Position numbers and translations under genes: made by a program | Notes under the pieces: generated by a model | The model's database searches: none | Told to the model about the DNA's origin: nothing | What the model saw: only the letters and a program-made list of their open reading frames with translations | Assembly: GCA_041662665.1 (NCBI GenBank) | Contig: JBAZSC010000002.1 | Span: 5,735-69,734 of the forward strand | From: Patescibacteria group bacterium | Lineage (GTDB): Bacteria > Patescibacteriota > JABMPQ01 > JAQVVF01 | Reading direction: 5' to 3' | DNA: 64,000 bases | Shown: positions 1 to 37,258 of the stretch, in pieces | Layout: each line of letters opens with the position of its first letter | How positions within the stretch are numbered: the first letter of the stretch is position 1

Positions 1-605
1 TTCAAAGATACGCCAGGCGTAATCACAAAGACATTGGCATGACGCTGATTTTCCGCTGGATCATACTCGCGAGTTACAATTGCAATTCGCAGATTGTCTG
101 TCGCAAGCGCCTTCTGGCAGATATCACGAATCGCAACAGTCTTGCCAGTTCCTGTACCTGCAACAACTCCAAATCCGCTGTTTGCCAGATCAGAAATTGC
201 AGCATCCATCTCGAGAGCTCTCACTTTTTCAAGCAATGTCAAAGGCAATTCTTCTGCTTCCAGAACAGTTGCAATGTTCACACAAGTACTTCTCGTCGGC
301 GCAATCACAACAACTCTCTGATAAAGCGCGTTAGATCTGAAGATAGCCGACCTAGCAGATCTTCTAACAATGACAATTTCATCTTCGTCATCGTCAACAA
401 CTACTGGCCGAACTGCAACTGGAACTGAAGCTTTTGAAACTGTACGACGAACTACAGCCGATCTTGCCGCAATCCTAACTGGAACTGGTCCATCATCATC
501 GTCATCATCATCGTCAGCAATTACAATACCTGTGCGTGAAGTTGGATTTGTAGGACTGGACTTTACTGCACTTGTATTCCTTGCTGGAAATCGAGAATTG
601 TTCAT
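1..605 (-). CDS. P-loop NTPase / SF2 helicase-like protein; gene runs off the window start (C-terminus missing). The N-terminus is disordered, with poly-Asp tracts.
   Basis: The minus-strand frame is open from the ATG at 605 to position 1. This is why it is absent from the ORF track. It has a Walker A motif 'VVAGTGTGKT', followed by a 'VTRE' element and a motif-Ib-like 'ITPGV'. An SD 'GAGGAGG' lies 6 nt upstream. The region is GC-rich compared with the rest of the window. Confidence 0.5.
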   Translation of the reverse strand, partial: MNNSRFPARNTSAVKSSPTNPTSRTGIVIADDDDDDDDGPVPVRIAARSAVVRRTVSKASVPVAVRPVVVDDDEDEIVIVRRSARSAIFRSNALYQRVVVIAPTRSTCVNIATVLEAEELPLTLLEKVRALEMDAAISDLANSGFGVVAGTGTGKTVAIRDICQKALATDNLRIAIVTREYDPAENQRHANVFVITPGVSL

Positions 606-4575: not shown

Positions 4576-4758
4576 TCATCTTTTTTCCTCTTCTTCATCA
4601 AACATTTCTCCACGAACCAAAGATCCTTGCTCTTTAGCTTGTTTAAAAGCTTCTTTCAATTCTCCCATTTCTAATTCTCTTCCTTCTTCCTGTGCCTTTT
4701 TTGCAACTTGGCAAATTGGACAATCATCAAAAAATTCTTGGTTATGTTCATGTGACAT
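4576..4758 (-). CDS. small acidic hypothetical protein (CPIC motif)
   Basis: 60-aa ORF with no obvious SD. Retained because it lies in an otherwise gene-dense minus-strand block. Confidence 0.3.
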   Translation of the reverse strand: MSHEHNQEFFDDCPICQVAKKAQEEGRELEMGELKEAFKQAKEQGSLVRGEMFDEEEEKR

Positions 4759-5585: not shown

Positions 5586-5778
5586 CTTGTCCCTCCTTTT
5601 TCAAAGAACGATATTTATATTTAAAAAAATTTGAAATTTATATTTATTATAATTTTATTTAACAACAAAATCAACGAAAGCGAAACGAAAATTCGAAAAA
5701 AGTATTCGCTTATATTCGCAAAAGCATTAGAGTGAGGCCAAAAAAAAGAAGCCATAACAGCTTCAATACAAAGAACGC

Positions 5779-5973
5779 TTAACCTCTGATTTTCAAAAAA
5801 TATTCCATCTTATCTCTTGGCCTCATGCGAGTTGGACGAAACTTTCGTTGAGTTTTTGATTCAAACGGAACATCATTTCGTCTTTCTTTCATCAAGCAAA
5901 CATCGGAATTTTCTGAAATCGGCTCAAGAATATGAAAGAAAAAAATCAACAAAACATCATCTGCGCTCAACAT
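5779..5973 (-). CDS. small protein, third gene of the GC-rich CDCQ cassette
   Basis: SD 'GAGGAGG' lies 7 nt upstream of the ATG at 5973. It overlaps the upstream gene's stop by 7 nt. It contains an 'SENSDVCLM' segment. Confidence 0.5.
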   Translation of the reverse strand: MLSADDVLLIFFFHILEPISENSDVCLMKERRNDVPFESKTQRKFRPTRMRPRDKMEYFLKIRG

Positions 5974-6335
5974 TTTTGTACCTCCTCTCTTGTTCTCTCT
6001 GGCACAATCAAATACTCATGTCTTAATCTCTTTCCCAAAAATAATGCATAAAAATCGCCATCAATATCAGCTAACCTGTTATCAGAAGATACAACATAAT
6101 TCCAATTCTGCGCGCAAGTCAGATCCTGAAAAGGATTAAACTTGCTCACAACTTGGCAATCACATTCAATCTTCAATACTCTAAAAAACACAATCAATCT
6201 TCCAATGTTGATTCTTCTCACACTATTTGAATCCAAATTGTTGGTTTCAACTATGGCACGAGTTTGAGAAAAATCATGTCCATTTTGACAACAATCCCGA
6301 GTACACAATTGCTGAAAAAATACCTCCACTTTCAT
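5967..6335 (-). CDS. small Cys-rich protein with an 'ECDCQVV' motif; paralog of 6337-6684
   Basis: A perfect SD 'AAGGAGG' lies 6 nt upstream of the ATG at 6335, inside the end of the preceding gene. The start is 1 nt after the upstream stop. GC-rich. Confidence 0.6.
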   Translation of the reverse strand: MKVEVFFQQLCTRDCCQNGHDFSQTRAIVETNNLDSNSVRRINIGRLIVFFRVLKIECDCQVVSKFNPFQDLTCAQNWNYVVSSDNRLADIDGDFYALFLGKRLRHEYLIVPERTREEVQKC

Positions 6336-6336
6336 C

Positions 6337-6684
6337 TCAAGCCTCCTTTGAACCCAATCTCAACAAAAAAGGAAAGCTATTAGGAGCAAATTCTTTTGGA
6401 AATTCATCTTCTCTTCGAAACCAAACCACAAATCCCCTTCCATTAATTCTCCTTGAAACACCTTGCGTGCACAATTTCCATTGTTCAGACAAATATTCAT
6501 TTTCCAAACTCAAACAGATAATTTGACAATCACATCTCACTCCAATTTCCATCAAAAATTCAATCACCCTATTGGTCATCAAAGAATGTTCCAATGCAAT
6601 CTCTCTAGCCAGAACTAACCCATGCTTGCCATTATGACAATATTTGCCTCTAGAAACCAGCTCAACGAATTCTCCGAACTCCAT
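6337..6684 (-). CDS. small Cys-rich protein with an 'RCDCQII' motif; first gene of the cassette
   Basis: The track ORF is 6337..6762. The start at 6684 (MEFGEF) is preferred because it has the SD 'GGAGGGAAAGGAA'. The leader is conserved with that of the 62265 gene. Confidence 0.55.
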   Translation of the reverse strand: MEFGEFVELVSRGKYCHNGKHGLVLAREIALEHSLMTNRVIEFLMEIGVRCDCQIICLSLENEYLSEQWKLCTQGVSRRINGRGFVVWFRREDEFPKEFAPNSFPFLLRLGSKEA

Positions 6685-6923
6685 TTCCTTTCCCTCCATT
6701 GCCCGCCGTAGCTTCAGCGAAGGTGGGCAAGCCGCCATATCCTTGGCGGACTTTCTGTCCATCGCGCTATTTTAAGAACAAAAAAATGACATCAAATGTC
6801 AAAGAACATATCGATAGTATATCTTAATTAAATATTTTGTCAAGAAAAGAATCCACAAAATAAAGCTGAATTTTTCTTATCATATCTTAAAAAATAAAAA
6901 GGAACTATAAAATAGTTCCAAAA

Positions 6924-7310
6924 TTAGTGCGACCAATGTTCTTCAAAAGGACCAGTTGCTCGTAAATCGCCATGCGAATTATATTGAGCTCCTCTCAAAC
7001 CAAGCAAAGCACGTGCCATAGCCAATCTTTGTTCACGTTCCAATAATTCTTTCTCAAATACTACCGCAACTACTCCTCCATGCTTCATCACATATTCACG
7101 CTCCAACTGCAATTCTTTCTTCAACTCCAATATTTTTTCACGAGGAAAATTTGCATTATCAATTTCCTCTTCGCTAAAAAAAACAAAGATAATCATTCCA
7201 TCCTTAACACTTTGACACCAACGTTCCTCCCACCACTTTATTACTTTTTCTCTCATTTCCATAGGCCATTCTGCTTTCTCAAAATCTTCACGATTCTTGA
7301 TTTCTATCAT
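6924..7310 (-). CDS. hypothetical protein
   Basis: 128-aa ORF rich in charged helical sequence. The leader contains hairpins. Confidence 0.45.
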   Translation of the reverse strand: MIEIKNREDFEKAEWPMEMREKVIKWWEERWCQSVKDGMIIFVFFSEEEIDNANFPREKILELKKELQLEREYVMKHGGVVAVVFEKELLEREQRLAMARALLGLRGAQYNSHGDLRATGPFEEHWSH

Positions 7311-7418: not shown

Positions 7419-7742
7419 TCACCTCTTTTGCACAGAAAGTAAAGTTTGATGATGATTCTTTTTATTTAATCTATCTAAAACTAATCTATAACCATTCATT
7501 CCATTATTTAACCATTTCGAAATTCTGGCAATTGTCCGAGAACTCAAACCAGTCTGTTTTACTATTTTTGTATAAGAAATTTTTCGATCTAACATTTGCA
7601 CTGCTTGCCAACGATTGCCAAATTCGATAATTTCAGCTTCTGTCAAAAGATCGCGCAAAAAACATTTTGCTTCTTTTTCATTTTTCAACATTAGCAAAGT
7701 TCGAATTAATTGACTGGTTTTCTTATTCTGCCATTTTAGCAT
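7419..7742 (-). CDS. TrpR/YerC/YecD-family DNA-binding protein
   Basis: 'LLTEAEIIEFGNRWQAVQML...YTKIVKQTGLSSRTIARISKWL' matches the Trp-repressor-like YerC family. Confidence 0.7.
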   Translation of the reverse strand: MLKWQNKKTSQLIRTLLMLKNEKEAKCFLRDLLTEAEIIEFGNRWQAVQMLDRKISYTKIVKQTGLSSRTIARISKWLNNGMNGYRLVLDRLNKKNHHQTLLSVQKR

Positions 7743-37176: not shown

Positions 37177-37258
37177 GCCGAAGTGGCGGAATGGTTTACG
37201 CGCACGACTCAAAATCGTGTGGACTCTGTCCATAAGGGTTCGACTCCCTTCTTCGGCA
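37177..37258 (+). tRNA. tRNA-Leu (anticodon CAA), class II with a long variable arm; CCA not encoded
   Basis: Acceptor stem gccgaag/cttcggc, anticodon stem cacga/tcgtg, loop cTCAAaa, T-loop 'ggttcgactcc', discriminator A. Confidence 0.85.

What the first reader, a model, noticed from the sequence alone, without database searches (positions are those of the whole stretch)
5779..6765. GC-rich three-gene cassette of coupled small Cys-motif paralogs
Three back-to-back minus-strand genes run 6684 to 6337, 6335 to 5967 and 5973 to 5779. The second and third carry near-perfect Shine-Dalgarno sequences, AAGGAGG and GAGGAGG, placed inside the end of the preceding gene. This is classic translational coupling.

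Products 1 and 2 are paralogs sharing '...R(V/L)I.F....(I/L).(V/I).CDCQ(I/V)(I/V)...(L/T)C(T/A)Q'. The third is a shorter protein with a degenerate 'SDVC' segment.

The region is about 45-50% GC against a ~30% background, suggesting acquisition. I cannot assign a fold or function. A tandem-duplicated small Cys protein family with unusually strong RBSs in an AT-rich symbiont-like genome is a candidate for a toxin/immunity, modified-peptide or metal-binding module.
Basis: seen in the sequence. Interest (0 to 1): 0.7.

Follow-up and report, generated by a model that had tools for sequence, protein, structure and literature searches.

The report
Three-gene operon of tiny CPR proteins
This is a real, self-contained operon found only in a small group of Patescibacteria (CPR bacteria) that makes two related small proteins with a probable metal-binding site plus a tiny basic protein; its function is unknown and the proteins diverge far faster than the neighbouring genes.

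Summary
ORF1 (6337-6684) and ORF2 (5967-6335) are ancient paralogs. They share a five-helix domain and invariant Cys-His-Cys-Asp-Cys residues, probably a structural metal site. They are sub-threshold relatives of Pfam DUF2695. ORF3 (5779-5973) is an unrelated basic 64-71 aa protein with an invariant C-terminus, K-x3-FLK(I/L)RG-stop.

The trio has its own promoter, a promoter-proximal palindrome, a leader hairpin, coupled Shine-Dalgarno junctions and a terminator. Gene order is the same in four lineages of Patescibacteria. A fifth lost ORF2, and a sixth kept only an ORF2-like gene.

Recent acquisition is not supported, because the locus is syntenic, the GC offset recurs in most related lineages, and there are no phage or plasmid hits.

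New here: the trio proteins are only 36-47% identical between genomes whose flanking genes are 88-98% identical. The promoter and terminator stay 77-85% identical. Function is unknown. My best guess, at moderate confidence, is a co-made complex in which the two paralogs bind and control the basic protein, as in a toxin-antitoxin pair.

The parts
6875..6890 (-). Upstream box TTAAGATATGATAAGA, conserved in all lineages
   Evidence: Alignment A6. Unique in the window. A similar box precedes another operon in L009.
6834..6858 (-). TTGTGGATTCTTTTCTTGACAAAAT, containing the -35 hexamer TTGACA (6838-6843)
   Evidence: Promoter scan gives 11 of 12 consensus matches. Conserved in six loci. Unique in the window.
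6816..6821 (-). -10 hexamer TATACT, 16-nt spacer from the -35
   Evidence: conserved.
6780..6802 (-). Palindrome TGACA-N5-TGTCA (6787-6801) followed by T7. It sits just downstream of the -10 and is a candidate operator or weak attenuator hairpin.
   Evidence: Unique in the window, 0.03 expected by chance. The arms are kept in five of six loci (one-base change in L012) while the centre varies. Absent from the otherwise similar L009 605-aa promoter.
6685..6779 (-). GC-rich 5' leader (55% GC) with hairpin CCGCCA/TGGCGG at 6732-6749 and a window-specific 30-nt insertion
   Evidence: GC. A hairpin is kept in all lineages with pairing-preserving differences, e.g. CCTGCCAA/TTGGCAGG in L004. The insertion is seen against L001. 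The whole-leader fold is no more stable than shuffles.
6693..6697 (-). Shine-Dalgarno GGAGG of ORF1
   Evidence: aligned in all lineages.
6337..6684 (-). ORF1, 115 aa, pI 6.3. Five-helix Cys3His domain (residues 1-76) plus a variable, low-confidence tail.
   Evidence: dN/dS 0.22 against L001. Orthologs P0002, P0004, P0006. AF2 model. Weak DUF2695 hit.
6342..6348 (-). Shine-Dalgarno AAGGAGG of ORF2, inside the end of ORF1
   Evidence: An equivalent SD plus stop-1nt-ATG junction occurs in L004, L010 and L013.
5967..6335 (-). ORF2, 122 aa, pI 6.7. Ancient paralog of ORF1 with the same Cys3His five-helix domain.
   Evidence: BLASTP E=2e-5 against ORF1. Orthologs P0005, P0009, P0007, P0008. AF2 model pTM 0.69.
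5981..5987 (-). Shine-Dalgarno GAGGAGG of ORF3, inside the end of ORF2
5779..5973 (-). ORF3, 64 aa, basic (pI 9.4; 9.7-11.2 in relatives). Invariant C-terminus K-x3-FLK(I/L)RG-stop.
   Evidence: Alignment A7. The invariant Arg is encoded by AGA, CGC or CGT in different lineages, so the constraint is on the protein. pI.
5740..5764 (-). Intrinsic terminator: stem 5748-5764 plus T8
   Evidence: Equivalent hairpins occur in all lineages. This region is 77-80% identical even in L011 and L012.

Best explanation
This is a self-contained, vertically inherited operon found only in a small clade of Patescibacteria (CPR).

Anatomy: one strong promoter drives a single mRNA. It is followed by a TGACA-N5-TGTCA palindrome and a GC-rich leader hairpin. 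Three small cytoplasmic proteins are made from that mRNA through coupled translation, and an intrinsic terminator ends it.

Products: ORF1 and ORF2 are ancient paralogs. Each has a five-helix domain with an invariant Cys-His-Cys-Cys site, most likely a structural zinc site, and both are distant relatives of DUF2695. ORF3 is an unrelated basic 64-71 aa protein with an invariant C-terminal FLK(I/L)RG.

Shown: the genes are real, conserved and coupled; ORF1 and ORF2 are paralogs; the key residues are invariant; the regulatory flanks are constrained; the proteins diverge fast.

Inferred: the three products assemble into one complex. In it the two near-neutral paralogs bind and hold the basic protein, as an antitoxin holds a toxin or a chaperone holds a client. 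Output is set at the palindrome and leader. The protein surfaces are free to co-diverge quickly around a fixed metal-stapled core.
For: Coding and selection:
- ORF1 dN/dS is 0.22 against L001.
- Within lineage C, ORF1 and ORF2 dN/dS are 0.07-0.17.
- ORF3's invariant C-terminus uses synonymous codons in different lineages.

Conservation of the trio:
- Same order and junctions in the window, L004/6/8/13, L009/10 and L011.

Paralogy and metal site:
-.
- DUF2695 is the only recurring Pfam signal, in five members over the motif region.

Operon anatomy:
-.

Support for a complex:
- Coupled junctions are conserved.
- The paralogs have pI 6.3 and 6.7; ORF3 has pI 9.4-11.2.
- ORF3 is never seen without an upstream paralog (five lineages). 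Paralog-type genes do occur without ORF3 (L012, P0010).

Fast divergence around a fixed core:
- Trio dN is 0.49-0.59, against 0.02-0.06 for backbone genes over the same lineage pair.
- The promoter and terminator stay 77-85% identical.
Against: - No complex prediction or experiment was possible, so the interaction is pure inference.
- No toxin, antitoxin or defence family matches.
- The locus is single-copy, syntenic and not on mobile elements. That is unlike typical toxin-antitoxin modules.
- L001 lacks ORF2, so a strict three-way complex is not obligatory.
- The metal site is inferred from invariant residues only.
- Only six lineages exist, all from metagenomes.
- dS is saturated between lineages, so deep dN/dS values are rough.
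Confidence: 0.45

Rival explanations
1. It is a true conflict module: a toxin-antitoxin or immunity-type system. ORF3 is a small basic toxin. ORF1 and ORF2 are metal-stapled antitoxins that also repress the operon at the palindrome. Allelic forms are kept diverse by an arms race or by frequency-dependent selection.
For: - The trio is 36-47% identical where flanking genes are 88-98% identical.
- The conserved promoter and terminator flanks could support allele exchange.
- ORF1 similarity does not track backbone distance: 71% to L001 but 47% to lineage C, at a similar backbone distance.
- The order is near-neutral proteins first, basic protein last, with coupling.
- A palindrome sits at the promoter.
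- ORF3 is never found alone, but orphan paralogs exist.
Against: - No hit in PADLOC, Pfam toxin/antitoxin families or PHROGs.
- One copy per genome, at a syntenic chromosomal site.
- Absent from phages, plasmids and viral contigs.
- No DNA-binding fold could be assigned to ORF1 or ORF2.
- The neighbouring 128-aa and 245-aa hypothetical genes also evolve fast, so fast divergence is not specific to the trio.
Confidence: 0.2
2. It is a metal- or redox-sensing regulatory pair. The Cys3His sites of ORF1 and ORF2 act as a zinc or thiol switch, analogous in logic to zinc-associated anti-sigma factors or Hsp33 (this comparison rests on my own knowledge). The switch controls the operon or another target, and ORF3 is an accessory factor.
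For: - The Cys-His-Cys-Cys set is the most conserved protein feature.
- The promoter-proximal palindrome and leader hairpin are constrained.
- Part of the upstream element is shared with another operon in L009, which hints at a regulon.
Against: - No sigma factor, transporter or redox enzyme is consistently linked to the trio.
- No regulatory or DNA-binding domain was detected.
- The motif order differs from known zinc-switch families (own knowledge; not tested here).
Confidence: 0.15
3. These are ordinary, weakly constrained, lineage-specific small proteins with separate or minor roles, for example nucleic-acid- or ribosome-associated accessory proteins. Co-transcription is for convenience only and there is no specific joint mechanism.
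For: - Neighbouring hypothetical genes (128 aa, 245 aa) diverge almost as fast.
- ORF2 is lost in L001, and ORF1 and ORF3 are lost in L012, without loss of the rest.
- The family is tiny: 7 hits among 1.84 billion cluster representatives.
Against: - Gene order, tight coupling junctions and SD strength are conserved across lineages despite about 60% protein divergence.
- The duplication is ancient and both copies are retained.
- The regulatory flanks are strongly constrained.
Confidence: 0.15
4. The ORFs are not real genes: the region is a structured non-coding RNA or a frameshifted pseudogene. A variant is a RiPP (ribosomally made, post-translationally modified peptide) cluster with ORF3 as the precursor peptide.
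For: - GC is elevated in an AT-rich genome.
- ORF3 dN/dS is 0.67 against L001.
- ORF3 has a conserved end and a variable body.
Against: - No Rfam match.
- Leader fold z-score is -0.17 and covariation is negligible.
- Protein-level constraint and synonymous codon turnover are seen.
- The three-frame organisation is identical in independent assemblies and lineages.
- No modifying enzyme is part of the conserved module.
Confidence: 0.03

Closest known systems
Pfam DUF2695 (PF10905), small bacterial proteins of unknown function
   Same: It is the only Pfam family that recurs as best hit: ORF1 E=2e-4, P0002 1.6e-3, P0006 5e-3, P0008 0.049, P0010 0.075. The match always covers the Cys/His ... CDC(Q/E) region, HMM positions ~10-52 of 53. 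Size is similar, about 100 aa. The literature gives DUF2695 no function.
   Different: All scores fall below the curated cutoff (at most 21.9 bits against 25). ORF2 itself and three other members give no hit. Here the domain occurs as an ancient tandem paralog pair coupled to a third, unrelated gene, with a dedicated conserved promoter and leader. It is confined to a few Patescibacteria.
Type II toxin-antitoxin operons, including three-gene forms
   Same: Compact operon, overlapping or abutting genes, upstream near-neutral proteins and a downstream small basic protein, a palindrome at the promoter, and rapid sequence divergence. The general properties of TA operons are from my own knowledge.
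   Different: No homology to any toxin, antitoxin or defence family. Single-copy, syntenic and not on mobile elements. No recognisable DNA-binding domain. Toxicity is untested.
Small zinc-stabilised helical regulators, e.g. zinc-associated anti-sigma factors with an HxxxCxxC motif (own knowledge)
   Same: Small cytoplasmic helical proteins whose main conserved feature is a Cys/His cluster.
   Different: The motif has a different order and spacing (C-x4-5-H ... C-D-C). No sigma factor is adjacent. There is no sequence or fold match.

Membership tests
DUF2695 (PF10905) | Whole-protein score at or above Pfam's gathering cutoff (25 bits) | tested here: not met
   The best score is 21.9 bits (ORF1). 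Five of the family sequences scanned score 13.6-21.9 bits. ORF2, P0004, P0005, P0007 and P0009 give no DUF2695 hit.
DUF2695 (PF10905) | The match covers the conserved Cys/His ... CDC(E/Q) core of the model, consistently across members | tested here: inconclusive
   All five weak hits align to HMM positions ~10-52 over the same motif region. The HMM consensus could not be inspected.
DUF2695 (PF10905) | Profile-profile (HHpred-type) homology to the family alignment | not testable with these tools
   No genuine DUF2695 sequences could be retrieved to build a profile.
Type II toxin-antitoxin system | Toxin or antitoxin homologous to a known family | tested here: not met
   No hits in Pfam, NCBIfam, PADLOC or PHROGs for any of the three proteins.
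Type II toxin-antitoxin system | Adjacent, co-transcribed, translationally coupled genes with an operator at the promoter | tested here: met
   Single promoter and terminator, 1-nt gap and 7-nt overlap, internal SDs, and a promoter-proximal palindrome.
Type II toxin-antitoxin system | Growth inhibition by the toxin, relieved by the antitoxin | not testable with these tools
   Needs expression experiments.
Type II toxin-antitoxin system | Antitoxin with a DNA-binding fold | tested here: inconclusive
RiPP biosynthetic cluster | A precursor peptide together with at least one modifying enzyme in the conserved module | tested here: not met
   The conserved module holds only the three small proteins. 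Neighbouring enzymes (M20 peptidase, ATP-grasp) are present in some lineages only.
Known structured RNA (Rfam) | A covariance-model match at or near the gathering score | tested here: not met
   No hit in the region at the gathering threshold. Only chance-level hits appear at E<=10.

The most novel reading that the evidence does not exclude
The trio is a new kind of polymorphic conflict or recognition locus specific to Saccharibacteria-like CPR bacteria. A pair of metal-stapled DUF2695-like paralogs neutralises a small basic effector whose invariant FLK(I/L)RG C-terminus is its active or recognition end. Deeply divergent allelic forms are swapped between otherwise near-identical genomes by recombination in the conserved promoter and terminator flanks. 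This would also give the DUF2695 superfamily its first function.
Probability: 0.15. Interest if true: 0.65.

Novelty: new variant of a known kind. Interest (0 to 1): 0.42.

Why it matters
CPR bacteria have tiny genomes, yet this clade keeps a tightly regulated, strongly translated three-gene operon with no assignable function. The operon defines a very rare protein family: seven hits among 1.84 billion cluster representatives. It is distantly tied to the uncharacterised DUF2695 domain.

The evolutionary pattern is the useful part. The metal-site residues and the C-terminal tail are fixed, the regulatory DNA is constrained, and the rest of the proteins diverge 10-25 times faster than neighbouring genes. 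That pattern marks proteins whose surfaces co-evolve with a partner or an adversary.

If the paralogs do bind the basic protein, this would be a simple model for how DUF2695-type domains work. It could also be a strain-level marker locus in Saccharibacteria-like episymbionts. If not, it is one more lineage-specific set of hypothetical proteins.

Tried and rejected
- **Structured RNA.** Rejected. No Rfam hit at the gathering threshold or in a permissive scan. Leader fold z = -0.17. The RNAalifold covariation term is only -0.16.
- **Frameshifted pseudogene.** Rejected. Two other assemblies of the same strain are identical. Other lineages keep the same three frames.
- **Recent horizontal acquisition or mobile element.** Not supported. 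The locus is syntenic. The GC offset is shared by most lineages. There are no tblastn hits in phages or plasmids, and the DNA probe is absent from viral contigs.
- **HTH/DNA-binding fold.** Weak HTH hits with the ORF1 model were not reproduced with the better ORF2 model. Foldseek on PDB gave nothing. Sequence searches of PDB gave nothing. The afdb50 library was unavailable.
- **'Ultra-conserved' upstream element.** Partly deflated. For lineages C and D it is at about backbone DNA identity. It remains well above the neutral expectation implied by backbone dS. It stands out most in distant L012, where backbone proteins are about 36% identical.
- **Hypermutation of the coding region.** Rejected. 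Within lineage C the trio's dS is no higher than that of the neighbouring M20 gene.
- **ORF2 disruption in L007.** This is an assembly gap (NN), not biology.
- **Family expansion.** The metagenome scan with the upstream DNA probe found only the same strain. The full-profile indexed search added only P0010, a lone gene in an unrelated context.
- **Profile-profile test against DUF2695.** Failed for lack of DUF2695 sequences.
- **Literature.** Nothing functional on DUF2695, and nothing similar described in Saccharibacteria.

Full report
**1. Observation**

The three minus-strand ORFs are present as described.
- ORF1's longest form starts at 6762. The ATG at 6684 is the real start. It has a GGAGG Shine-Dalgarno (SD) sequence at 6693-6697, and 6762 has none. 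The 6684 start and its SD align in every related locus.
- AAGGAGG (6342-6348) and GAGGAGG (5981-5987) sit inside the preceding genes.
- The junctions are TGA-G-ATG and ATGTTGA.
- Only 6 of 56 proxy genes in the window have an SD match of 7 nt, so the ribosome-binding sites are strong for this genome.
- GC of 5779-6765 is 38.1%. Same-size windows average 31.3% (sd 2.9), which puts the region at the 98.6th percentile. GC is elevated, but it is not 45-50%. Only the ~90-nt leader reaches 55%.

**2. Coding or not**

- Rfam finds nothing in the region.
- ORF1 has a 71%-identical ortholog in a syntenic contig, L001, with dN/dS 0.22, similar to its neighbours.
- ORF3 against L001 gives dN/dS 0.67 over 64 codons, with one in-frame indel.
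- Across five lineages ORF3's C-terminus K-x3-FLK(I/L)RG-stop is invariant. The invariant Arg is encoded by AGA, CGC or CGT, and other codons also vary synonymously. The constraint is therefore on the protein.
- Two further assemblies of the same strain, L002 and L003, are identical to the window. This rules out a sequencing frameshift.

**3. The family**

- An exhaustive HMMER search of 1.84 billion cluster representatives, using an ORF1/ortholog/ORF2 profile, found only seven proteins. They split into ORF1-like (P0002, P0004, P0006) and ORF2-like (P0003, a partial copy of the window's own ORF2, plus P0005, P0007, P0008).
- Their contigs show the same three-gene order and tight junctions in lineage C (L004-L008, L013), lineage D (L009/L010/L014) and lineage E (L011).
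- L001 lacks ORF2 cleanly.
- L012 keeps only an ORF2-like gene between the conserved promoter and the terminator remnant.
- The two genome records that carry the locus are titled 'Patescibacteria group bacterium' and 'uncultured Candidatus Saccharibacteria bacterium'.
- The ORF1/ORF2 duplication is therefore older than these lineages, and the missing genes are losses.

**4. The proteins**

- ORF1 and ORF2 match each other with E=2e-5.
- Across nine sequences the invariant positions are F6, C16, H21, F43, C51, D52, C53 and W69.
- AlphaFold2 gives the same five-helix domain for both. ORF1 residues 1-76 mostly have block-mean pLDDT 83-90. The ORF2 model has pTM 0.69, and all five models agree.
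- The Cys/His residues lie in the loops between helices 1-2 and 3-4. This suggests a structural metal staple. I could not inspect the coordinates, so this is an inference.
- The only recurring family signal is Pfam DUF2695. It is the best hit in five members over the motif region, but always below the curated cutoff. DUF2695 itself has no known function.
- ORF3 is unrelated to the paralogs. It is basic (pI 9.4-11.2, against 6.3 and 6.7 for the paralogs) and has no Pfam or PDB match. Its 'SDVC' segment is not conserved.

**5. Regulatory anatomy**

- The upstream gene ends at a terminator at 6901-6919.
- The promoter is TTGACA-16-TATACT at 6816-6843, matching 11 of 12 consensus positions.
- Just downstream lies a TGACA-N5-TGTCA palindrome followed by T7 (6780-6802). 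It is unique in the window, with 0.03 expected by chance. Its arms are kept in five of the six loci (L012 has one changed base), and its centre varies.
- A GC-rich leader hairpin (6732-6749) is kept in all lineages with pairing-preserving differences.
- An intrinsic terminator follows ORF3 (5740-5764).
- In L009, the upstream box and -35 region, but not the palindrome, recur in front of the 605-aa/M20-peptidase operon. So the palindrome is the part specific to the trio.

**6. Evolutionary pattern (the main new result)**

- Between the window and lineages C and D, flanking genes are 88-98% identical at the protein level: NDK 98%, DEAD helicase 92%, TrpR-like 89%, GT4 88%. The trio proteins are only 36-47% identical.
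- By the Nei-Gojobori method, backbone genes have dN 0.02-0.06 and dS 0.65-0.82. The trio has dN 0.49-0.59 with saturated synonymous differences.
- Within lineage C the trio shows ordinary purifying selection: dN/dS is 0.07-0.17 for ORF1 and ORF2, and dS is no higher than in the neighbouring M20 gene. There is no hypermutation.
- At the DNA level, the parts that stay alignable across lineages are the promoter region (80-85%), the ORF3-end/terminator region (77-80%) and a few motif patches. The two flanks remain alignable even to L012, whose backbone proteins are about 36% identical.
- ORF1 similarity does not track backbone distance. It is 71% to L001 but 47% to lineage C, although the two are at a similar backbone distance from the window.
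- The adjacent 128-aa and 245-aa hypothetical genes are also fast-evolving. The trio therefore sits in a variable patch of an otherwise conserved chromosome.

**7. Interpretation**

Recent acquisition is not supported:
- the locus is syntenic in relatives;
- the GC offset recurs in most related lineages;
- there are no phage, plasmid or viral matches.

The facts to explain are these:
- coupled synthesis of three products;
- two near-neutral paralogs with a fixed metal-type core and free surfaces;
- a basic third protein with a fixed tail, which never occurs without a paralog upstream;
- constrained regulatory DNA.

The reading that fits best is a co-assembled complex in which the paralogs bind and control the basic protein, as an antitoxin controls a toxin. 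I hold this at about 0.45.

The rivals are:
- a true toxin-antitoxin or immunity system under diversifying selection (0.2);
- a metal or redox switch (0.15);
- unrelated, weakly constrained accessory proteins (0.15).

Non-coding, pseudogene and RiPP readings are essentially excluded.

**8. Novelty and limits**

- The domain is most likely a very divergent branch of the uncharacterised DUF2695 superfamily.
- The paralog-pair-plus-basic-protein operon, its dedicated regulatory region and its divergence pattern are not described in any library or paper I could search.
- Only six lineages exist, and all are metagenomic.
- The alignments behind the structure models are shallow.
- No complex prediction, AFDB search or HHpred run was available.
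- Deep dN/dS values are saturated.

Noticed in passing
window 5600-5760; L001 2273-2345; L012 1256-1328; L009 7934-8006: A tRNA-Pro(GGG) gene lies downstream of the module in L001, L012 and L009. It is missing at the equivalent place in the window, where about 120 nt are absent relative to L001. The only tRNA in the whole window is tRNA-Leu(CAA) at 37177-37258.
   Followed up: partly
window 6924-7310 (-) and 7419-7742 (-): The 128-aa gene just upstream has no family match and a conserved C-terminus, HGDLR...HWSH. It is also fast-evolving: 53-55% identical where the adjacent TrpR-like gene (Pfam Trp_repressor, E=7e-18) is 84-90% identical. The pair occurs together in the window, L001, L003 and L004.
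   Followed up: partly
L009 2300-2440, compared with window 6816-6890: The upstream box and extended -35 region (TAAGATA..ATAA ... TGTGGATTCTTTTCTTGACAA) recur in front of the 605-aa/M20-peptidase operon in L009, without the palindrome. This may be a shared activator site or a common strong-promoter architecture in these genomes.
   Followed up: partly
window 6700-6730 (-): A 30-nt GC-rich insertion in the leader, absent from L001 and L009, creates the spurious N-terminal extension of ORF1. That extension led gene callers to the 133-aa and 141-aa versions.
   Followed up: yes
L004 2548-5402; L006 2937-5797; L009 2715-5763 and 8132-9130: In lineages C and D a 571-605 aa protein with no family match and an M20/M28 peptidase sit directly upstream of the trio. 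L009 and L013 also carry a RimK-like ATP-grasp gene downstream. None of these is near the trio in the window, so they are probably not part of the module.
   Followed up: no
window 4576-4758 (-): A 60-aa ORF with a CPxC motif and an acidic tail gives weak hits to Cys_rich_CPXG and to a rubredoxin-like domain. It is called as a gene in L002.
   Followed up: no
window 1-600: The first ~600 nt of the window have 44-45% GC, against a ~31% background. There is no Rfam match.
   Followed up: no
L013 6302-6742: In the Patescibacteria MAG STF1_73 the 3' end of ORF2 differs from the other lineage-C strains. It reads 38 nt into ORF3, which looks like a frameshift-type change near the stop.
   Followed up: no
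L016-L019 (P0010, 89 aa): A lone 89-aa protein with the same CxH...ECDCQV signature occurs in an unrelated genomic context, next to pyrophosphatase and DUF1579 genes. It may bridge this family to mainstream DUF2695.
   Followed up: partly
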